Shown: positions 38,839-57,389 of the stretch, piece by piece
Layout: the number at the start of each line of letters is the position of its first letter
Position numbering within the stretch: the stretch's first letter is position 1
NCBI GenBank assembly: GCA_023245335.1
Contig: JAHFKK010000001.1
Span: forward strand, 363,282-427,281
Source of the DNA: Candidatus Gottesmanbacteria bacterium
GTDB lineage: Bacteria; Patescibacteriota; Microgenomatia; UBA10105; UBA927
Length of the DNA: 64,000 bases
Reading direction: 5' to 3'
Translations under genes and position numbers: made by a program
Notes under the pieces: model-generated
Told to the model about the DNA's origin: nothing
The model's input: only the letters and a program-made list of their open reading frames with translations
Database searches by the model: none

Positions 38839-41268
38839 ATGAAGCTACCAAGCGCGCTTACCTCACTCATCAAAAAGAAGGAAGACGGAAAAGAATACTA
38901 CTTTTCCCTCTACATGGATGTCGATGCCGCAGCCGTTGCCGTGTGGAGCATGGATCCGGCCAAATTACCGACAATAGCCAGCTTCGCTCACGGCGTCGTA
39001 AAAGAGAATACCTGGGAAGCGCGGATACAGGTCATTGACCGGTTGTTGTCGGCCGCGGAAGACAAGGTAGGGGTAACAAAGGCGATCACCAAAACAGTTT
39101 TCGGCATGCCGGGCGCGTACCTCACTGCGGAAGGGAACATCGCTGATGAGATCCGGCCGCAGCTTAAAAAACTTGCACAGGTATTGGAACTTAAACCTGT
39201 GGGATTCGTTCCGTTGTCCCAAGCGCTTGCGTTTTCTCTCAAAAACGACGAAGGCGTACCGCCGAGCATCATCCTCATCGGGTGTTCCCAGAAAAATGCG
39301 CTCATCACCCTTTTTCGGGTCGGGAAACTTACCAGCCAGGATACGGTCGATCTCGCGGATGATCCGGCGGCTGTCGTGGAAGCGATCCTGAAAAAGAATC
39401 AGGATGGCGATGTGTTGCCTTCCCGGATGCTTCTGTACGGCGGGGATACCGTGAGACTCGAGGATGTACGGACGAAATTATTGAAACACCCCTGGCCCAC
39501 GCGGACAAACTTTCTCCACTTCCCGAAAATAGAGATCGTATCCGTAGAGTCGCTTCTCCACGCGGTTTCCCTGGCCGGGGCCGCGGAACTTGCTTCTGAC
39601 ATCGGGGAGCCGATTGAAGCCGCAGGAACGGTAGCGACGGTCGTTGCGCAACCGCGCCCGTCCATACTTCCCTCAGAGCCGGTCATTACACCTGCCGACA
39701 CGACTTCGGAAAAGGAAGAAGTGGAAGAAGAAGCGGTTGATGAGCGCGAAGAATCGGGTATCGCCAGTGCAGGTGAGGAAGAGGGAGAACCCGGTTCGTT
39801 GGAATCGGAAGCAGAAACAGTGGGTGATGCTATCGAAAAAGAAGAATCATCCGATGAAGAAGTCTCAAATGTAGAACTCGTGACACCCGAGTCTCTGGGA
39901 TTCCGGAAAGAAGACATACTGGAAAAAACTCCGGCTTCACATATGCCGCGGCCGGTCGTCGCGAAACCTATTAATCGTGAAGAGCTGGAAGAGGACGTAT
40001 TTGAGGAAGAAGACGAAGAAGAAGTGGAAGATACAAACGCAAAAAAGCCATTCAAATTGCCATTTAGCATTCCTACCGTCCGGGCGGATATGTTTGCTCC
40101 GGTCACACGCTTCCTGTCGCACCTTCGGTTTCCCAAAATGAAAAATACCATGTATATTTTCGGTGCTGTGGGTGTGGTACTTCTCTTGGGGGTCCTCTTT
40201 TATTTCGTCCCACGGGTCACGGTAACCGTTCTCGTATCGCCGCAGTCGGTGGACCAGTCGACGACGCTGACGGTCAATCCGACCGCAACTGTCGCAGACC
40301 CCGCGAGTAAAATCATACCGGGACACACGCAAAGCAAATCCATAAGCGGCGATAAAACAATTGCAGTGACCGGCAAGAAAAACGTCGGCGATCCGTCCAA
40401 GGGAACCGTGACTATCTATAATAAAGTCACGAATAGTAAGACGCTCCCTAAGGGAACGGTGCTTACGGGAAACAGTCTGTCATTTACTCTCGACAGTGAT
40501 GTTTCCATCGCTTCAGCCAGTGAAGACATAGGTTCCATCACCTTCGGAAAAGCGACCGCAAACGTCACCGCCAAAGACATAGGACCCAACGGCAATCTGC
40601 CGGCCGGCGTAGAATTCGTATTTACCGGTGTGAGTGGTTCGCAGGCATCAGCCCGGAACGATGCGGCATTTACCGGCGGCAACAGCAAATCAGTGACGGT
40701 CATTTCGCGCGCCGACCAGGACGGACTCGTGAAAGCCCTGACGGATGATTTGGTGGGGCAGGCGAAATCGCAGTTAGCCGCAAGTGCGACAGGCGGGGAG
40801 CATCTCATAGATGAAACGGTAAAAACTGCAGTGTCCGATAAGTCATTTGATCAGGAGATAGATCAGCAGGCGAGCCAGCTGCACGGCAAAATCACGATAA
40901 CGGTAAGCGGGATAAGCATAAGCGATGAAGACGTAAAAGCGATCCTTACGTCTCTGGTAGAAGGGAAAGTACCGGCAGGCTATGCCCTGGCGCCGGATCA
41001 AACCAATGTGTCGGTTTCCAACGTGACGGTCAAAAAAGACGGCTCCATAACGCTGACTGCGAAACTCACGGCGATCGCACTTCCGAAAGTCGACACCGAG
41101 GCACTTAAAACGACCCTCGCAGGAAAGGACGTCACCGCAGCGCTTACCATCCTCAAACAAACGACCGGGGTAGCAGGGGCAGAGTATAAGTTTGCGTTTT
41201 CGCCCGTGCAAAGCCGGTTGCCCATGAACCGCAACAATATCACCATTACCACAGCAGTCCAGCGATAG
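38839..41268 (+). CDS. Bitopic membrane protein: actin-like (FtsA/PilM-like) cytoplasmic N-domain, acidic linker, one TM, large beta-rich extracellular domain
   Basis: N-terminal 260 aa look like a degenerate FtsA/PilM ASKHA fold (YYFSLYMDVDAAAVAVWSMD; IILIGCSQKNALITLFRVGKL; MLLYGGDTVRLEDV). Glu-rich linker. TM helix IFGAVGVVLLLGVLFYFV. About 390 aa Thr/Val/Ser-rich ectodomain. Confidence 0.45.
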   Translation: MKLPSALTSLIKKKEDGKEYYFSLYMDVDAAAVAVWSMDPAKLPTIASFAHGVVKENTWEARIQVIDRLLSAAEDKVGVTKAITKTVFGMPGAYLTAEGNIADEIRPQLKKLAQVLELKPVGFVPLSQALAFSLKNDEGVPPSIILIGCSQKNALITLFRVGKLTSQDTVDLADDPAAVVEAILKKNQDGDVLPSRMLLYGGDTVRLEDVRTKLLKHPWPTRTNFLHFPKIEIVSVESLLHAVSLAGAAELASDIGEPIEAAGTVATVVAQPRPSILPSEPVITPADTTSEKEEVEEEAVDEREESGIASAGEEEGEPGSLESEAETVGDAIEKEESSDEEVSNVELVTPESLGFRKEDILEKTPASHMPRPVVAKPINREELEEDVFEEEDEEEVEDTNAKKPFKLPFSIPTVRADMFAPVTRFLSHLRFPKMKNTMYIFGAVGVVLLLGVLFYFVPRVTVTVLVSPQSVDQSTTLTVNPTATVADPASKIIPGHTQSKSISGDKTIAVTGKKNVGDPSKGTVTIYNKVTNSKTLPKGTVLTGNSLSFTLDSDVSIASASEDIGSITFGKATANVTAKDIGPNGNLPAGVEFVFTGVSGSQASARNDAAFTGGNSKSVTVISRADQDGLVKALTDDLVGQAKSQLAASATGGEHLIDETVKTAVSDKSFDQEIDQQASQLHGKITITVSGISISDEDVKAILTSLVEGKVPAGYALAPDQTNVSVSNVTVKKDGSITLTAKLTAIALPKVDTEALKTTLAGKDVTAALTILKQTTGVAGAEYKFAFSPVQSRLPMNRNNITITTAVQR

Positions 41269-47647: not shown

Positions 47648-47684
47648 TGAATCGTTTGTTTCGCATTCCCTTTCTATGTTAAGG

Positions 47685-47735
47685 TTGACATATGTTTTAA
47701 CATATGTTAATATATGAGTTGTACTTAACATATGG
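47685..47735 (+). promoter_or_regulatory. Promoter TTGACA-17-TAATAT interleaved with three ACATATG-core palindromic operator repeats
   Basis: TTGACATATGTT at 47685..47696, the perfect 14 bp palindrome TTAACATATGTTAA at 47697..47710, and TTAACATATGG at 47725..47735, which overlaps the ATG of the HTH gene. Confidence 0.6.
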
Positions 47736-47989
47736 ATACAAAACGGTATTTATCCACGACAGACGTAGCAAAGATTTTGGGCGTAAGCCGTATCACGGTG
47801 TTTCAGCGTGTCAAGAGCGGGAAAATTCATGCCGTAAAAGTCGGTCATTCTTATGTGATTGATCCCGCCGATATCGGTGTGGTGACGGGTCAAGCAGTTT
47901 CTCCAAAGCAAAAGTTGGTCATGAATCAGGCGGTCAAGAAAACCGTGGCCGAGTATGGAGATGCGCTCCGCTTACTCGGGAAGGAATAG
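47732..47989 (+). CDS. Excisionase/MerR-type HTH DNA-binding protein; putative antitoxin of Doc
   Basis: LSTTDVAKILGVSRITVFQRVKSGKIHAVKVG helix-turn-helix. Its stop is 5 nt before the Doc start. Confidence 0.6.
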   Translation: MDTKRYLSTTDVAKILGVSRITVFQRVKSGKIHAVKVGHSYVIDPADIGVVTGQAVSPKQKLVMNQAVKKTVAEYGDALRLLGKE

Positions 47990-47993
47990 ATTC

Positions 47994-48413
47994 ATGATAA
48001 CCAAACTCACCATAGATGAAGTGGAATACATTTCATTTACGCTCGCTAAGGAGCTCATGGGATGGAAGGAGCCGATTCCGGATTTCCATACGCGTTTCCC
48101 CAACATATTAGAAAGCAGTCTTCGTGTCCCTTTTCAGACGTTTGACGGCAAAAATCTTTATAAGGGCCTCATCGACAAAGCGGCGATTCTTTTCTATCTC
48201 ATGATCAAAAATCATCCGTTCAAAAACGGGAATAAGCGGATCGCGATGACGACACTGTTTGTATTTCTCTACGTGAACGGTAAATGGCTCAAGGTGGACA
48301 ATCGGGAACTGTATACGTTTGCCGTGTGGGTGGCGGAAAGTAATGCGATGTTTCAGGAGGGAGTGGTGACGTCTATCCGTAAATTTTTGACTACCTACCT
48401 CGTTGAGCGATGA
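47994..48413 (+). CDS. doc: Fic/Doc-family toxin (death-on-curing)
   Basis: Fic/Doc motif HPFKNGNKR (consensus HxFx(D/N)GNKR) within a roughly 140 aa protein. Confidence 0.75.
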   Translation: MITKLTIDEVEYISFTLAKELMGWKEPIPDFHTRFPNILESSLRVPFQTFDGKNLYKGLIDKAAILFYLMIKNHPFKNGNKRIAMTTLFVFLYVNGKWLKVDNRELYTFAVWVAESNAMFQEGVVTSIRKFLTTYLVER

Positions 48414-48423
48414 TTGCCGTGAT

Positions 48424-48666
48424 CTATAAGGGGAGTACGCGTTGGGCAGTCGAGACCGGTGGAGCTTTCTTCACTTTTTCTTTTGCCTCTATAGATTCCG
48501 ATACCATGAGTTCCAAAAGATCGCTTCGGAGAATGGCGTATATCCCGTGTCCTCCCGCAGAAAGATGTCGGGCTTTCAGCATTTTGTGTTCTATCCACCG
48601 GCGGATCGTATCCGGATGTTTGTGGAGAAACCGGGCAGCTTCTTCGACGGTAACGATATCATTCAT
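48424..48666 (-). CDS. Excisionase-family HTH DNA-binding protein
   Basis: VTVEEAARFLHKHPDTIRRWIEHKML, a classic excisionase-type HTH. Convergent with doc. Confidence 0.55.
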   Translation of the reverse strand: MNDIVTVEEAARFLHKHPDTIRRWIEHKMLKARHLSAGGHGIYAILRSDLLELMVSESIEAKEKVKKAPPVSTAQRVLPL

Positions 48667-52665: not shown

Positions 52666-53421
52666 ATGGCTAAATTTATCGGAGGGACTAGTAAATATCT
52701 AATCCAGCAAAAATTTTATTACATGCTGGGAGGGTATCTTCTCATGATTTGTCTTGTGGTCGCGTTGCTGTGGTATTGGGTGTTTATACTCCATTTTGTC
52801 CACAATATTTGGGTTATTTTGACAGCTACGATAGTTTTTCTTATCGTTTACAAGGTCATTACTTACTTTGTTAATGACGGGATGAAGCACGAATTTGCTT
52901 TTGGTTATGGGATAACCGGTGAAGCAAAAGTAGCAGAGGAACTCAACCGTTTACCCGCCAGCTACACAGTTATTCAAGATGTGAAACTTTCAGATACAAA
53001 GACAAACATTGATTTTGTAGTCCTTGGCCCAAATGGAATATGGGCAGTTGAAGTAAAAAGTCACAAAGGCAATATCACTTATGATGGAAGCCGGTTGTTG
53101 AGATATGGCCGGCCACTCGAAAAGAATTTTATCGGTCAGTCACGTCTCGAGGCTACCGCGCTAACTGATTATCTTCAGTCACATATAGACCGTCACATAT
53201 ATGTTGATTCACTCCTCGTATTTTCAAGTCCAAAAGCGACCATGCGCTTTGGTGAGCACCCGATACAAGATGTGGTTATAATTGGTGCTTCATGGCTTAA
53301 CCGGCATATCCTTGAACATCAGTCGCAAATTAAGTTTACACCGCAGGATATCGACCAAATTGCACGTGTCCTGCAATTAGAAAAAATAGATGGTAGTAAA
53401 CCTGCAATGGGTGTAAAATAG
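52666..53421 (+). CDS. NERD (nuclease-related domain) protein with N-terminal TM helices
   Basis: Three N-terminal hydrophobic helices, then a NERD-like core (GEAKVAEELNRL...IDFVVLGPNGIWAVEVKSHKGNI). AT-rich. Confidence 0.65.
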   Translation: MAKFIGGTSKYLIQQKFYYMLGGYLLMICLVVALLWYWVFILHFVHNIWVILTATIVFLIVYKVITYFVNDGMKHEFAFGYGITGEAKVAEELNRLPASYTVIQDVKLSDTKTNIDFVVLGPNGIWAVEVKSHKGNITYDGSRLLRYGRPLEKNFIGQSRLEATALTDYLQSHIDRHIYVDSLLVFSSPKATMRFGEHPIQDVVIIGASWLNRHILEHQSQIKFTPQDIDQIARVLQLEKIDGSKPAMGVK

Positions 53422-53443
53422 GGCAGATCAGAACTATTTTTAT

Positions 53444-55075
53444 ATGCCACAGCTTACTTGGATCGGAAAAGATAAAGTCGAAAACCACGACAAGGACCTT
53501 CCTTTTCGAGTGCTGAAACCAAACAAAAAACTTTCAGTCGGTGAGGACGACAATCTTCTTATACAAGGTGACAATCTCGAAGCATTAAAAGCTTTAATGC
53601 CGTTTTACTACAATAAGATTAAGTGTATTTATATTGATCCACCATATAACACGGGAAACGAGAAGTGGGTTTATAACGACAAGGTAAATTCGGCCCGAAT
53701 TAAAAAATGGCTTCATTCCGTAGTAGGAACGGAAGATCTTGAACGTCACGATAAGTGGTTATGTATGATTTATCCTAGAATTAAACTTCTTAGGGATTTA
53801 TTAAAAGAAGACGGTGCTATTTTTGTTTCGATAGACGATAACGAAGTAGACAATCTTAGGCTTTTAATGGACGAAGTATTTGGGTCTAAAAACTTCGTAG
53901 CTATGATAATAGTTCAAATTAATCCAAGAGGAAGAACATTAGATAGATTTTTAGCTAAAACCCACGAGTATATTCTTCTTTATGCGAAAAATGCCGAACT
54001 CGATTCTTGTATAAATCTTATTCCTAAAGTAGGTCATTCTTTAGGAACATATAACAAAAAGGACGACAAAGGTATTTATAGAACACTTGAATTAAGAAAT
54101 CGGAACCCCGTTTTTAACCGCAAAAACCGACCTAATTTATATTACCCAATCTTTGTAAATCCTGTTGATTTTAAGATTTCTTTAACTAAAGACACCAAAC
54201 ACACAATTGAGGTTTTCCCCTTGAACAGCACAGGTGTTGAAGGGTGTTGGACTTGGGGAAAAGATAAAGTAGCACAAGAAATAGGTACTCTACTTGGCAA
54301 AAAGGTTTCTACCGGTGTATGGAGAATCTATAGAAAAGATTACCTTTACGACGATCAGGGAAATGAGTCATTAACTAAGGCAAAAGCACTTTGGACAGAA
54401 TCAGAATTTAATAATGAAAATGGGAAAGAGATTGTAAGGAAAATATTTGGTGGGAATTCGCCCTTTGACTATCCAAAATCGGTAGATCTGATTAAGCATT
54501 GTATCAAATTAGGATCTGGAAGTAGCGATATTATTATGGATTCTTTCGCCGGATCAGGTACCACAGGTCACGCAGTATTAGAATTAAATAAAGAAGATGG
54601 TGGTAAACGAAAGTTTATATTGGTCGAGCTTGAAGAGGAAATAGCTAAAAAAACAACCGCAGTTAGACTTCAAAAAGTAATCAAAGGATATAACGGAGCT
54701 ATGTATCCTAACGGGACAGGGCAAGGCTTCCAGTATTTAGATTTAAACGGAGAATTATTTGACAGAACAGGTATTATAAACAACGTAGTAAATTACGAAG
54801 ACCTAGCCTCTTATATTTACTTTACTGAAACAAAGTCATATTTAGATCTAGGAATAATCAGAAATTCCTATATAGGTAGTTTTGGTTCAAATAATTATTT
54901 CTTATTATTCAACGGTATAGGAAAGAATGTTTTAGACGAGAGGTTTTTAAAGTCAATTTCCAGATATGAAGGGAAAAAGGTTGTATTTGCCGATAAATGC
55001 CTATTAGACGACGATTATTGTGAAAAGCACAACATTGTCTTTAAACAAATTCCTTACGAATTAAAGAAATATTAA
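53444..55075 (+). CDS. mod: Type III restriction-modification methyltransferase (Mod), N6-adenine beta-class
   Basis: Motif IV IYIDPPYNTGN near the N-terminus and motif I DSFAGSGTTGHA near residue 365, the beta-class order. AT-rich. Directly followed by res. Confidence 0.85.
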   Translation: MPQLTWIGKDKVENHDKDLPFRVLKPNKKLSVGEDDNLLIQGDNLEALKALMPFYYNKIKCIYIDPPYNTGNEKWVYNDKVNSARIKKWLHSVVGTEDLERHDKWLCMIYPRIKLLRDLLKEDGAIFVSIDDNEVDNLRLLMDEVFGSKNFVAMIIVQINPRGRTLDRFLAKTHEYILLYAKNAELDSCINLIPKVGHSLGTYNKKDDKGIYRTLELRNRNPVFNRKNRPNLYYPIFVNPVDFKISLTKDTKHTIEVFPLNSTGVEGCWTWGKDKVAQEIGTLLGKKVSTGVWRIYRKDYLYDDQGNESLTKAKALWTESEFNNENGKEIVRKIFGGNSPFDYPKSVDLIKHCIKLGSGSSDIIMDSFAGSGTTGHAVLELNKEDGGKRKFILVELEEEIAKKTTAVRLQKVIKGYNGAMYPNGTGQGFQYLDLNGELFDRTGIINNVVNYEDLASYIYFTETKSYLDLGIIRNSYIGSFGSNNYFLLFNGIGKNVLDERFLKSISRYEGKKVVFADKCLLDDDYCEKHNIVFKQIPYELKKY

Positions 55076-55076
55076 T

Positions 55077-57389
55077 ATGTTAAATTTAAAAAAGTATCAA
55101 GCTAGAACATTACAAGAATTAGATGATTTTCTGGTTAATGCAAGTGCCTTAAAAGGTGGGCGCGGAATTAGAATAGCCTATCTAGATCAGGTAGGTGACG
55201 AAGAAAGGCATTACAAGCCAATAGAAAAGCTGGAGGAATCACCCTTTGTATGTATTAAAATTCCGACTGGCGGTGGAAAAACCTTAGTTGCCTGTCACGC
55301 ACTTCCAGTTATCCTCGATCGTTATTTAAAAGATAAAAATGGAAAAGGTCTTGTTATATGGTTTGTTCCTTCGGACGCTATCAGGTCCCAAACTCTAAAC
55401 AACCTTAAAGACAGAAACCATCCCTATCGTGAAGTATTAGATAGTAAGTTTGGAAATAACGTTAAAGTTTTAACGATTGAAGAAGCCTTATCTATATCAA
55501 AATCGGATATACAAAATAATCTATGTATCGTAGTTGCTAGTCTTTCAGCATTTAGACGAACAGATACATTGTGGTTAAAGGTTTTTCAGAATAACGGTTC
55601 TTTAATATCCCATTTTGAAAATCTTATTGAAGACAAAGACTTTTTTGAAAAAGACGAGGAAGGTGAAATCATTTATTCACTAGCAAATGTGATCAAAATG
55701 AACAATCCGCTTATAATAGTTGACGAAGGACATAATGCACAAACACTGTTATCATTTGAAATGCTTCAGAAGCTTAACCCCTCGTTTATTTTAGAATTTA
55801 CCGCTACACCAAGGGCAGAAAGCAATGTATTAGTTAAAGTTCTTGCTTCTGAATTAAAGGCAGAAAAGATGGTCAAGATTCCCATTTACTTAGATAACGT
55901 TACCCAATGGCAAGAAGCAATTCGTGATGGCGTTAAGCAACGTAATGATCTTGAAAAGCTAGCGGGAAAAGAAAAGCGATTAACAAAAGAATATATTCGT
56001 CCAGTCGCCCTACTTCAAGCAGAACAAGAAAAGGAAAACAACACAAAGATATATGTAGAAAAAATTAAACGGTTTTTACTGGAAGAACTTGAGATTCCAG
56101 AAGCACAAATTGCAATTAAGACCAGTAAGCAAGATCAGATTAAAGGAATTGACTTATTTAAATCGAACTGTCCGATACGCTACATAATTACCGTAAACGC
56201 CCTTAAAGAAGGCTGGGATTGTTCTTTTGCTTATGTTCTTATTTCTGTTGCTAATCTAGGCGCTACAATAGCCGTAGAACAGACAATGGGACGCATAATG
56301 CGTCTACCTAATGCCAAGGACAAAAAGTCGGTAGATCTTAACTATTCCTATATCTATACGTCTTCTGAAAGCTTTAACAGGGCTTCTAGCGCCATTATAA
56401 AGGGCTTAGAGCAAAACGGTTATTCAAGACAAGATCTTCGTAAAAATGAAGGAACGATCGTCCCAGAAAAAGAAGAATTCGATAAGTTTATCAAGGATAA
56501 AGATATTAAAGTTCCATTGTTGGGGATAAAAGGCAAAGGCGACGCTTTAGCTTTCAATAGAGATCTTATTGGTGAAGATTTCCGAATCTATGATCATTCC
56601 AAACCATTCGAAATCGATTTTCATAATGACCAGAATCAAAGAATTAAGATTGACATAGATAAAGAAAACGGCTTATATCGCATAACGCAGGGGAAACTTA
56701 GCCTAATCTTGTACCCGGAAGATTTTTCAATTGAAGAAGTAGGTAATTGGCTAAAACAGAATATCAGACATAATGTCGTTTCTTCCGACGAAATGTCTAA
56801 ATATATCGATTTGGTATTGGTTGAAGCTTCAAAGAAACATAAGATCGAAGAAATAAGCCTGAATAGGTTTCGACTTAAAGAATTGATCGGATTCGAAGTC
56901 TTAAAGATAATTACCGAATATGCCAAAAGTGTATTTGATAAGCTAATGTCTAAGAAGGCCCTTAACACCGATTCCGCTTACTTTACGCCGACAGAAAGTA
57001 TCTTTCTTTTAAGATTATCCGAAGAACACTTTCAGAAACACTTATTTGAACGGTCAGGTCATTTAAACGGCGAAGAAACAGATTTTGCTATGCGTTTAGA
57101 CACGCTAGATAATCTTATGTGGTGGTATAGGAATCGCGAAAAAGAAGACTTCTACCTTCAAGGGTGGAAACAGGGGAAGTTCTACCCCGATTTTATAGCC
57201 AAAACCAAAAGCGGAAAGTATTTACTAATTGAATATAAAGGTGAAGATAGACTTAGTAATGAAGATACTGGCTACAAGAAAGATCTGGGAAATTTATGGT
57301 CAAAGATTTCCGGAGGTAAACATAAGTTTTATTTAGTAAACAAAAGTAATTCAGACGAAATTCTTAAAGAAATCTCAAGAATTGCGTAG
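55077..57389 (+). CDS. res: Type III restriction endonuclease Res subunit (SF2 helicase plus C-terminal PD-(D/E)xK nuclease)
   Basis: Walker A IPTGGGKT, Walker B IIVDEGHNA, helicase motif VI-like QTMGRIMR, and a C-terminal YPDFIAKTKSGKYLLIEYKG (PD...ExK). Confidence 0.8.
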   Translation: MLNLKKYQARTLQELDDFLVNASALKGGRGIRIAYLDQVGDEERHYKPIEKLEESPFVCIKIPTGGGKTLVACHALPVILDRYLKDKNGKGLVIWFVPSDAIRSQTLNNLKDRNHPYREVLDSKFGNNVKVLTIEEALSISKSDIQNNLCIVVASLSAFRRTDTLWLKVFQNNGSLISHFENLIEDKDFFEKDEEGEIIYSLANVIKMNNPLIIVDEGHNAQTLLSFEMLQKLNPSFILEFTATPRAESNVLVKVLASELKAEKMVKIPIYLDNVTQWQEAIRDGVKQRNDLEKLAGKEKRLTKEYIRPVALLQAEQEKENNTKIYVEKIKRFLLEELEIPEAQIAIKTSKQDQIKGIDLFKSNCPIRYIITVNALKEGWDCSFAYVLISVANLGATIAVEQTMGRIMRLPNAKDKKSVDLNYSYIYTSSESFNRASSAIIKGLEQNGYSRQDLRKNEGTIVPEKEEFDKFIKDKDIKVPLLGIKGKGDALAFNRDLIGEDFRIYDHSKPFEIDFHNDQNQRIKIDIDKENGLYRITQGKLSLILYPEDFSIEEVGNWLKQNIRHNVVSSDEMSKYIDLVLVEASKKHKIEEISLNRFRLKELIGFEVLKIITEYAKSVFDKLMSKKALNTDSAYFTPTESIFLLRLSEEHFQKHLFERSGHLNGEETDFAMRLDTLDNLMWWYRNREKEDFYLQGWKQGKFYPDFIAKTKSGKYLLIEYKGEDRLSNEDTGYKKDLGNLWSKISGGKHKFYLVNKSNSDEILKEISRIA

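What the first reader, a model, noticed from the sequence alone, without database searches (positions are those of the whole stretch)
47685..48666. Doc/Fic toxin with an excisionase-type HTH antitoxin, a triple palindromic operator, and a second convergent HTH gene
The Doc motif HPFKNGNKR is intact. Its upstream partner is an excisionase/MerR-type HTH protein rather than Phd. The promoter is interleaved with three ACATATG-core palindromes, including the perfect 14-mer TTAACATATGTTAA, and one of them overlaps the start codon, so tight autoregulation is expected. A second excisionase-family HTH gene converges on doc from the other strand. The local GC is lower than the core genome, which suggests a mobile remnant.
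Basis: partly seen in the sequence, partly recalled or inferred. Interest (0 to 1): 0.55.

Follow-up and report, generated by a model that had tools for sequence, protein, structure and literature searches.

The report
Doc toxin with Xis-like antitoxin
This is an intact two-gene toxin-antitoxin cassette: a Doc-type kinase toxin preceded by a small excisionase-like DNA-binding antitoxin. It belongs to a large family of mostly uncultured bacteria, unnamed in the databases and papers I could search, whose promoter carries the same array of GTTAAC boxes across many phyla. The second HTH gene next to it is an unrelated neighbour.

Summary
The genes are real. HTH1 (47732-47989, 85 aa, HTH_17/excisionase-type) is followed 4 nt later by Doc (47994-48413, 139 aa), which has an intact HxFx(D/N)(A/G)NKR motif. 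A strong sigma-70-like promoter sits upstream.

In 79 of the 80 closest Doc loci from other genomes (many phyla), the same HTH gene lies immediately upstream; the 80th is cut at its contig end. Their promoters carry boxes of consensus GTTAAC(ATA), spaced alternately 10 and 19 bp apart. Residues in the predicted recognition helix change when the box sequence changes, which argues for direct operator binding.

The conserved units are four TTAA(C) boxes at 47679, 47697, 47707 and 47725.

The convergent HTH2 gene (48424-48666) is a lineage-conserved neighbour that also occurs where no Doc cassette is present. The GC dip is not notable, and no integrase, tRNA or flanking repeats were found.

The most likely mechanism is a type II TA: the winged-helix domain represses the promoter, and the very conserved C-terminal helix neutralises Doc. 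Neutralisation and toxicity are inferred, not shown. I rate it a new variant of a known kind, of moderate interest.

The parts
47676..47682 (.). Operator box 1 (ATGTTAA, leftward orientation), just upstream of the -35
   Evidence: Equivalent box present in L004 and in most family loci, 18-19 bp from the next box.
47685..47713 (+). Sigma-70-like promoter: TTGACA (47685-47690), 17-nt spacer, TAATAT (47708-47713), with TG at 47705-47706
   Evidence: 10 of 12 matches with an extended -10. This is a consensus match only; the TSS is not mapped.
47697..47710 (.). Operator boxes 2+3: perfect palindrome TTAACATATGTTAA (family consensus GTTAACATATGTTAAC). It fills the promoter spacer and overlaps the -10.
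   Evidence: An exact TTAAC-N4-GTTAA palindrome is present upstream of the HTH gene in 66 of 82 non-redundant loci. Consensus.
47725..47731 (.). Operator box 4 (TTAACAT), abutting the HTH1 start codon
   Evidence: window boxes at -53, -35, -25, -7 relative to the ATG.
47732..47989 (+). HTH1, the predicted antitoxin/repressor (85 aa). Winged HTH at residues ~6-48, flexible linker ~49-57, conserved C-terminal helix ~58-81 (AVKKTVAEYGDALRLLGKE).
   Evidence: Pfam HTH_17 and TIGR01764. AF2 model. Foldseek best matches Pukovnik Xis at rmsd 1.1 A over 45 residues, then BldC. Present immediately upstream of Doc in 79 of 80 loci. Tail conservation.
47994..48413 (+). Doc-family toxin (139 aa), predicted Fic-fold protein kinase
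   Evidence: PF02661 and TIGR01550 above cut-offs. Phrog_577 'Doc-like toxin' E 3e-21. AF2 model best matches P1 Doc 3K33/3DD7/3KH2 with TM 0.66-0.74. More than 5,700 homologous protein clusters.
48213..48239 (+). Doc catalytic motif HPFKNGNKR (residues 74-82)
   Evidence: Read directly from the sequence. Fits HXFX(D/N)(A/G)NKR as quoted in PMC13034048. H74, P75, F76, N78, G79, N80, K81 and R82 are invariant in 21 homologues.
48424..48666 (-). HTH2 (80 aa, HTH_17). A neighbouring gene, NOT part of the module.
   Evidence: 97 homologous clusters in Patescibacteria. Same syntenic position without the Doc cassette in L089 and L093-L095. No detectable similarity to HTH1. Absent from 79 of 80 Doc loci.

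Best explanation
This is a self-contained type II toxin-antitoxin cassette of about 776 bp (47648-48423).

- HTH1 is the antitoxin and autorepressor. Its Xis/BldC-like winged-helix domain reads GTTAAC(ATA)-type boxes that flank the -35, fill the spacer and -10, and reach the start codon, so occupancy would block RNA polymerase.
- Its C-terminal helix, which looks disordered on its own, binds and neutralises Doc. This parallels the portable 'Phd-C' element of Phd and PanA antitoxins.
- Free Doc is predicted to act as a Fic-fold kinase that phosphorylates EF-Tu and arrests translation.

Shown here: the gene pair, the domain and fold assignments, the intact motif, strict gene linkage, the conserved operator array, and protein-DNA covariation. 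Inferred: DNA binding itself, neutralisation by the tail, toxicity, the target, and any toxin-dependent cooperativity between boxes.
For: 1. Domains and folds.
2. Motif intact, with its invariant residues conserved.
3. Linkage: 79 of the 80 closest Doc loci from GTDB genomes have the HTH family gene directly upstream (the 80th is cut at the contig end). Phyla include Patescibacteria, Omnitrophota, Planctomycetota, Elusimicrobiota and Aminicenantes. In a second set fetched with an HTH query, at least 68 of the 76 loci with at least 300 nt of downstream sequence carry a Doc gene just downstream, counted after manual checking.
4. Operon style: the gene gap is -4 or -1 nt in 41 of 80 pairs, and 4 nt here.
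5. Operator: GTTAAC occurs at 19.5 per kb in the 120 nt upstream against 0.13 per kb elsewhere in the same loci. TTAA cores alternate at 10 and 18-19 bp. Consensus is GTTAACATATGTTAAC and TATGTTAAC-N13-GTTAACATA.
6. Specificity covariation: helix residue 24 is aromatic (F/Y/H) in all 96 loci that have at least 3 TTAAC boxes. Four loci with TTATC/GATAAC boxes have Leu24 with E or T at position 21. Two loci with TTGTC/GACAAC boxes have Q21 with L or I at position 24.
7. The last 19 residues of HTH1 are its most conserved part, with many positions at 90% or more. AF2 gives a helix of low confidence after a disordered linker, as expected for a segment that folds on binding.
8. A decayed cassette (L096) keeps the tail followed by a Doc remnant.
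Against:
- The tail has no sequence similarity to Phd-C that I could show.
- In E. faecalis Phd-Doc, neutralisation works through toxin dimerisation rather than active-site occlusion (PMC13034048). The exact mode here is therefore open.
- A tail-like motif also occurs in a few proteins not next to Doc, for example L098 beside a phage terminase.
- A handful of orphan HTH-tail genes exist.
- The very high Doc conservation (60-70% identity across phyla) is unusual for a purely selfish toxin.
Confidence: 0.8

Rival explanations
1. The pair is a regulator plus a regulated housekeeping or stress kinase, not a toxin-antitoxin pair. HTH1 only controls transcription. Doc is a conserved physiological kinase (for example dormancy control in small-genome bacteria) that needs no protein antidote.
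For: Doc is unusually conserved: 60-73% identity across distant phyla. The cassette sits stably at the same site in at least two related genomes (L004; 93% Doc identity). Neutralisation is not demonstrated.
Against: The strictly conserved C-terminal helix has no role in a pure repressor. The overlapping-gene architecture is typical of TA operons. Presence/absence varies among close relatives, and decayed copies and orphan antitoxin-like genes exist. All of this fits an accessory, mobile module.
Confidence: 0.1
2. HTH1 and/or HTH2 are excisionases (recombination directionality factors) of a degraded integrative element, and doc is its cargo.
For: TIGR01764 'excise' and PHROG excisionase families match. 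The best structural match is a phage Xis.
Against: No integrase is called within about 10 kb on either side. The window has no tRNA. No direct repeats flank the cassette. GC is not deviant. The HTH gene is always coupled to Doc, never seen here beside a recombinase. Its binding sites sit in its own promoter as inverted pairs. No relative of this Doc was found in IMG/VR viral contigs or at more than 40% identity in phage and plasmid records.
Confidence: 0.03
3. It is a three-component system in which the convergent HTH2 is a second regulator or second antitoxin of Doc.
For: Adjacency in the window (10 nt between the two stop codons), in L004, and probably in the 89%-identical relative whose Doc and HTH2 proteins both lie on contigs of 3478 bp.
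Against: HTH2 homologues occupy the same syntenic slot (convergent on the YceG-DUF2207-PBP genes) with no Doc cassette adjacent in L089 and L093-L095. In L091 the Doc pair lies elsewhere. 79 of 80 Doc loci lack any HTH2 homologue within 3 kb. HTH2 lacks the conserved tail and shows no similarity to HTH1.
Confidence: 0.03

Closest known systems
Phd-Doc of bacteriophage P1 (PDB 3K33, 3DD7, 3KH2)
   Same: Toxin fold and Doc-type motif. Antitoxin gene first, with the genes tightly coupled. Operator repeats in the promoter. The antitoxin is predicted to have a C-terminal helical segment for the toxin.
   Different: The antitoxin DNA-binding domain is a Xis/BldC-like winged helix (HTH_17), not the Phd/YefM fold. 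The operator is an array of GTTAAC boxes with 10/19-bp alternation. Doc shares only about 20% identity with P1 Doc and is 13 residues longer. This family was not found on any phage or plasmid record searched.
Enterococcus faecalis chromosomal Phd-Doc (PDB 9VZC; PMC13034048)
   Same: Best sequence match among solved structures (E 2.9e-7, 139 aa). Chromosomal Doc with the same motif.
   Different: Its antitoxin has a beta-sheet DNA-binding domain and recognises a single palindrome. Neutralisation there involves toxin dimerisation.
Truncated-MerR-type HTH antitoxins paired with PIN toxins (Makarova et al. 2009, PMC2701414)
   Same: Precedent for a short MerR/excisionase-like HTH acting as a predicted type II antitoxin.
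   Different: The toxin is PIN, not Doc. The putative toxin-binding extension is N-terminal there and C-terminal here.
DocD6:PanA with a 'Phd-C' neutralising element (Ernits et al. 2023, PMC10440598)
   Same: Same concept: a short helical C-terminal element neutralises Doc and can be attached to unrelated N-terminal domains.
   Different: The N-terminal domain is Panacea there. I could not show sequence or structural equivalence between the tail here and Phd-C.
AbrB/MazE-Doc pairs on plasmids of cultured Firmicutes (for example Alicyclobacillus sp. ALC3, NZ_CP066785.1)
   Same: Nearest annotated Doc relatives in the plasmid collection (36% identity), with the same two-gene layout.
   Different: The antitoxin is an AbrB-fold protein.
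Small Xis/BldC-type winged-helix DNA binders (Pukovnik Xis 4J2N; BldC 6AMK/6AMA)
   Same: Fold of HTH1 residues ~6-50. These proteins also bind arrays of short repeats.
   Different: From my own knowledge, those proteins bind direct (head-to-tail) repeats and act in recombination or development. Here the boxes alternate in orientation, lie in the protein's own promoter, and the protein carries an extra conserved helix.

Membership tests
Doc (Fic-fold kinase toxins; TIGR01550 / PF02661) | Sequence match to the family models above curated cut-offs | tested here: met
   PF02661 40.9 bits against 24; TIGR01550 51.6 bits against 38.65.
Doc (Fic-fold kinase toxins; TIGR01550 / PF02661) | Doc-type motif HXFX(D/N)(A/G)NKR, with Lys in place of the second Gly of the Fic motif | tested here: met
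   HPFKNGNKR at residues 74-82. Invariant in 21 homologues. Motif definition from PMC13034048.
Doc (Fic-fold kinase toxins; TIGR01550 / PF02661) | Doc three-dimensional fold | tested here: met
   AF2 model (mean pLDDT 70.5, pTM 0.67). Best Foldseek matches are P1 Doc chains with TM 0.66-0.74 and probability 1.00, although E is only about 1e-3.
Doc (Fic-fold kinase toxins; TIGR01550 / PF02661) | Phosphorylates EF-Tu and arrests growth | not testable with these tools
   Needs toxicity and kinase assays.
Canonical phd-doc module | Antitoxin of the Phd/YefM fold | tested here: not met
   HTH1 matches HTH_17/excise only. No Phd/YefM match in Pfam or NCBIfam. The fold is Xis/BldC-like.
Type II toxin-antitoxin operon | Two small co-directional genes, antitoxin first, overlapping or nearly so, conserved as a pair in varied contexts | tested here: met
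   4-nt gap here; -4 or -1 nt in 41 of 80 pairs. Pair conserved in 79 of 80 loci in different neighbourhoods.
Type II toxin-antitoxin operon | Antitoxin binds operator repeats in its own promoter (autoregulation) | tested here: inconclusive
   Strong indirect support: the box array overlaps the promoter, boxes are 150-fold enriched, spacing is conserved, and helix residues covary with box sequence. Binding itself was not measured.
Type II toxin-antitoxin operon | Antitoxin protein binds and neutralises the toxin | not testable with these tools
The inference rests on the conserved C-terminal helix.
Excisionase / recombination directionality factor | Xis-type winged-helix domain | tested here: met
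   TIGR01764 33.1 bits against 28.8. Pukovnik Xis rmsd 1.1 A.
Excisionase / recombination directionality factor | Linked to an integrase and attachment sites of a mobile element | tested here: not met
   No integrase within about 10 kb, no tRNA in 64 kb, no flanking repeats. The partner is always Doc.
MerR-family regulators | Long C-terminal coiled-coil dimerisation helix plus effector-binding domain; binds within a 19-20 bp promoter spacer to activate transcription | tested here: not met
   85 aa only. MerR Pfam models score below cut-off for HTH2 and are absent for HTH1. The promoter spacer is an optimal 17 nt.

The most novel reading that the evidence does not exclude
The antitoxin may have no dimerisation domain of its own. 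Like Xis and BldC, it would bind one box per monomer. The strictly alternating 10/19-bp, alternately oriented box array would then be assembled into a repressive filament only when Doc (or paired C-terminal helices) bridges neighbouring monomers. That would be a toxin-built operator complex, different from the dimer-on-palindrome logic of known type II systems. It could also explain why toxin, tail and operator are all frozen across phyla.
Probability: 0.15. Interest if true: 0.6.

Novelty: new variant of a known kind. Interest (0 to 1): 0.4.

Why it matters
Doc toxins are a textbook model, but they have been studied with Phd-type (and a few AbrB or Panacea) antitoxins from cultured bacteria and phage P1.

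This locus represents a very large Doc lineage. It has more than 5,700 protein clusters and at least 478 loci in species-representative genomes, mostly in uncultured small-genome bacteria. Its partner is an excisionase-like winged helix with a frozen C-terminal helix and a portable, phylum-independent operator code.

It offers a clean natural system for three questions:
- how neutralising peptides are grafted onto different DNA-binding domains;
- how a simple HTH recognition code (residues 21 and 24 against box positions 4-5) evolves;
- why a 'selfish' toxin is so conserved in organisms that are otherwise stripped of accessory genes.

On the practical side, annotation pipelines currently leave the antitoxin unnamed or misname it, and they mis-start the toxin gene.

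Tried and rejected
I ran only separate monomer models.
- Exact look-up of the 139-aa Doc failed because gene callers use the 152-aa start.
- I first noted that relative L004 lacks HTH2. tblastn showed it is there at 83% identity, uncalled, so I corrected this.
- The idea that the conserved ...GKE codons double as Doc's Shine-Dalgarno holds for the window (GGAAGGAA), but only 16 of 80 loci have an SD-like core there. I rejected it as a general explanation of tail conservation.
- The tail-only profile search hinted at other architectures. The clearest case (HNH + tail, P0340) turned out to be a decayed cassette followed by a Doc remnant. The others are unresolved.
- Rfam scan of 46-50 kb found nothing relevant.
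- A search for flanking direct repeats found none.
- Viral contigs gave no relatives. Plasmid and phage records gave only distant Doc at 39% identity or less.
- Six literature searches found no description of an excisionase/HTH_17-type antitoxin paired with Doc. This is absence in the held library only. TADB and TASmania could not be queried.

Full report
WHAT IS IN THE SEQUENCE

The interval holds three small ORFs.

- HTH1, 47732-47989 (+), 85 aa. It matches Pfam HTH_17 (E 1.9e-8) and NCBIfam TIGR01764 'excisionase family DNA-binding' (33.1 bits, cut-off 28.8) over residues 6-48.
- The Doc gene, four nucleotides after the HTH1 stop. The mechanical ORF list starts it at 47955. Alignment with homologues shows the real start is the ATG at 47994 (MITKLTIDEVEY..., 139 aa), preceded by GGAAGGAA. 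It passes the curated cut-offs of PF02661 (Fic/Doc) and TIGR01550 (DOC_P1) and matches PHROG 577 'Doc-like toxin'.
- HTH2, 48424-48666 (-), 80 aa, also HTH_17. Its stop lies ten nucleotides from the Doc stop.

The Doc motif HPFKNGNKR (residues 74-82, 48213-48239) fits HXFX(D/N)(A/G)NKR, as quoted in PMC13034048. Eight of the motif's nine residues (all but K77) are invariant in 21 homologues.

Upstream of HTH1 is a near-consensus promoter: TTGACA at 47685, a 17-nt spacer, TAATAT ending at 47713, and an extended-10 TG.

THE REPEATS

CATATG occurs at 47689, 47701 and 47729, and TTAACATATGTTAA lies at 47697-47710.

On its own the 14-mer is not beyond chance in 64 kb. The informative unit emerged from comparison with other genomes. 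It is a box with a TTAA core flanked by G or C, with extended consensus GTTAACATA. The window has four such boxes, with TTAA cores at 47679, 47697, 47707 and 47725 (spacing 18, 10, 18 bp). About 0.015 clusters of this density are expected in the whole window.

- Box 1 lies just upstream of the -35.
- Boxes 2 and 3 form the perfect palindrome in the spacer and overlap the -10.
- Box 4 abuts the start codon.

Box 1 was missed.

THE PAIR IS A CONSERVED MODULE

The Doc protein has more than 5,700 homologous clusters, and the best 120 are 64-89% identical. A scan of one genome per species found at least 478 loci. The 80 best come from Patescibacteria, Omnitrophota, Planctomycetota, Elusimicrobiota, Aminicenantes, Margulisiibacteriota and others.

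An HMM of HTH1 homologues finds the HTH gene immediately upstream of Doc in 79 of these 80 loci. The exception is cut by its contig end. The genes overlap by 4 or 1 nt in 41 of 80 pairs. Neighbourhoods differ completely between lineages. For example, the pair sits between patatin and ruvB in a Magasanikbacteria genome.

A reciprocal scan of metagenomes with an HTH query gave 80 more loci. After manual checking, at least 68 of the 76 loci with enough downstream sequence carry Doc just downstream, and a few HTH genes are orphans.

THE OPERATOR TRAVELS WITH THE GENES

In 82 non-redundant loci:

- GTTAAC occurs at 19.5 per kb in the 120 nt upstream of the HTH gene, against 0.13 per kb in the rest of the same loci. 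Sixty-six loci carry an exact TTAAC-N4-GTTAA palindrome whose four central bases vary.
- The spacing of successive boxes is almost only 10 bp (82 cases) or 18-19 bp (97 cases), in alternation: 19-10-19, 10-19-10 and so on.
- The consensus is GTTAACATATGTTAAC for the 10-bp pairs and TATGTTAAC-N13-GTTAACATA for the 19-bp pairs, so box orientation alternates.
- The 19-bp gaps often hold the -35 or -10 hexamer.

PROTEIN-DNA COVARIATION

In the predicted recognition helix (window residues 19-29, SRITVFQRVKS), residue 24 is F, Y or H in all 96 loci that have at least three TTAAC boxes.

- Four loci from at least three lineages whose boxes are GTTATC/GATAAC have Leu24 with Glu or Thr at position 21.
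- Two loci with GTTGTC/GACAAC boxes have Gln21 with Leu or Ile at position 24.

This is the strongest available evidence that HTH1 reads these boxes. It remains indirect, and the variant loci are few.

STRUCTURE

- The AF2 model of HTH1 shows a beta-alpha-alpha-beta-beta winged helix (residues 7-48, pLDDT about 80), a disordered linker (49-57), and a long C-terminal helix (58-81) of low confidence.
- Its best PDB matches are mycobacteriophage Pukovnik Xis (rmsd 1.1 A over 45 residues) and BldC.
- The C-terminal 19 residues (consensus AVKKTVxEYGETLKLLGKE) are the most conserved part of the protein. No Pfam or NCBIfam model covers them.
- The Doc model (pTM 0.67) best matches P1 Doc from Phd-Doc complexes, with TM 0.66-0.74.
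- By sequence, the nearest solved structure is E. faecalis Doc, 9VZC.

MECHANISM PROPOSED

This is a type II TA. The winged helix represses the promoter through the box array, and the C-terminal helix folds onto Doc and neutralises it. The concept matches the portable 'Phd-C' element described for Phd and PanA antitoxins (PMC10440598). Free Doc would phosphorylate EF-Tu.

The second and third steps are inferred from family knowledge. I could not model the complex. How the alternating 10/19-bp array is occupied is unknown: by dimers on the 10-bp pairs, possibly bridged by toxin as in P1 (my own knowledge), or by monomers bridged by toxin.

THE SECOND HTH GENE

HTH2 has 97 homologous clusters, all from Patescibacteria where named.

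- In relatives it occupies the same slot, convergent on the thymidine phosphorylase - YceG - DUF2207 (- PBP) gene string, whether or not a Doc cassette is present. In L089 its stop is 1 nt from the PBP stop, with no cassette. In L093-L095 there is no cassette either. In L091 the cassette lies elsewhere.
- L004, the 74%/93% (HTH1/Doc) relative, has the same HTH1-Doc-HTH2 arrangement as the window.
- Only one of the 80 Doc loci has an HTH2 homologue nearby, and it is not convergent on Doc.
- HTH1 and HTH2 share no detectable similarity beyond the domain class.

HTH2 is therefore a lineage-conserved stand-alone regulator. The cassette (47648-48423, 776 bp) is a presence/absence insertion between two convergent genes.

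MOBILITY CLAIMS

- GC of the finding is 0.458 against 0.490, the 14th percentile.
- No integrase is called within about 10 kb, the window has no tRNA, and no flanking repeats were found.
- No relatives were found in IMG/VR.
- Nothing above 40% identity occurs in phage or plasmid records. There the nearest Doc genes pair with AbrB-type or unnamed small proteins.
- Mobility is instead supported by the patchy distribution among close relatives and by near-identical modules in distant phyla.

NOVELTY

Shuffling of antitoxin DNA-binding domains among toxins is well known. Examples are truncated MerR with PIN, and Doc with Phd, AbrB or YhfG (Makarova 2009). The toxin here is already auto-annotated as death-on-curing family.

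I found no description of an excisionase/HTH_17-type antitoxin for Doc, of the conserved tail, or of the GTTAAC box array in the searchable literature. One homologue of the antitoxin is even named 'Molybdate-binding protein'.

I therefore rate it a new variant of a known kind. Its family size, cross-phylum conservation and readable recognition code give it moderate interest.

Noticed in passing
window 52666-57389: Low-GC island (GC 0.34-0.39 against 0.49 for the window) carrying a NERD-domain gene, an N6/N4 DNA methyltransferase and a ResIII/DEAD helicase. It looks like a horizontally acquired type III-like restriction-modification or defence island just upstream of AhpC. This, not the Doc cassette, is the compositionally foreign region of the window.
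   Followed up: partly
window 48424-48666 (-); L089, L091, L093-L095: HTH2 is a conserved, stand-alone 80-aa HTH_17 protein of one Patescibacteria clade. It is always convergent on the YceG-DUF2207(-PBP) genes. Its function and targets are unknown.
   Followed up: partly
window 47955-48413: Public gene calls give Doc a 152-aa product starting at 47955, overlapping HTH1 by 35 nt. Homologues and the family alignment support the 139-aa start at 47994.
   Followed up: yes
L096 1405-2185 (protein P0340): A decayed cassette: an ORF with an HNH-endonuclease-like N-terminus ends in the antitoxin tail and is followed by a remnant of the Doc C-terminus. It lies just downstream of a 300-aa HTH+Fic protein.
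   Followed up: partly
L098 102-356 (P0326); also P0321, P0323, P0264, P0272, P0382: The AVKKTVxEYGETLxxLG motif also appears at the N-terminus or middle of unrelated small proteins, one of them directly upstream of a phage terminase large subunit. It is unclear whether these bind Doc-like proteins or whether the motif has a more general role.
   Followed up: partly
L119, L141, L143, L172, L173, L176: Orphan HTH-tail genes with no Doc downstream, for example upstream of an RseP-like protease or SecA. Some have degenerate tails. They may be solitary antitoxins or domesticated regulators.
   Followed up: no
L135, L139, L144, L145, L148, L150, L153, L155, L162, L165, L169: A subgroup of the antitoxin family has Glu at helix position 22 (SR[IV]E[VI]FRKIK) and has no, or at most one, TTAAC box upstream. 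They presumably use a different operator, which I did not determine.
   Followed up: no
window 47714-47731: Only 18 nt separate the -10 hexamer from the HTH1 start codon, and there is no Shine-Dalgarno-like sequence. This implies a very short leader or a near-leaderless mRNA. In L005 the gap is 8 nt.
   Followed up: no
P0130 (L005-L008): A 55%-identical homologue of the antitoxin is named 'Molybdate-binding protein' in NCBI/UniRef. This is probably an annotation carried over from HTH similarity.
   Followed up: no
window 38839-41268: An 809-aa protein with a weak Baseplate_J Pfam hit lies in an otherwise housekeeping neighbourhood, downstream of alanyl-tRNA synthetase.
   Followed up: no
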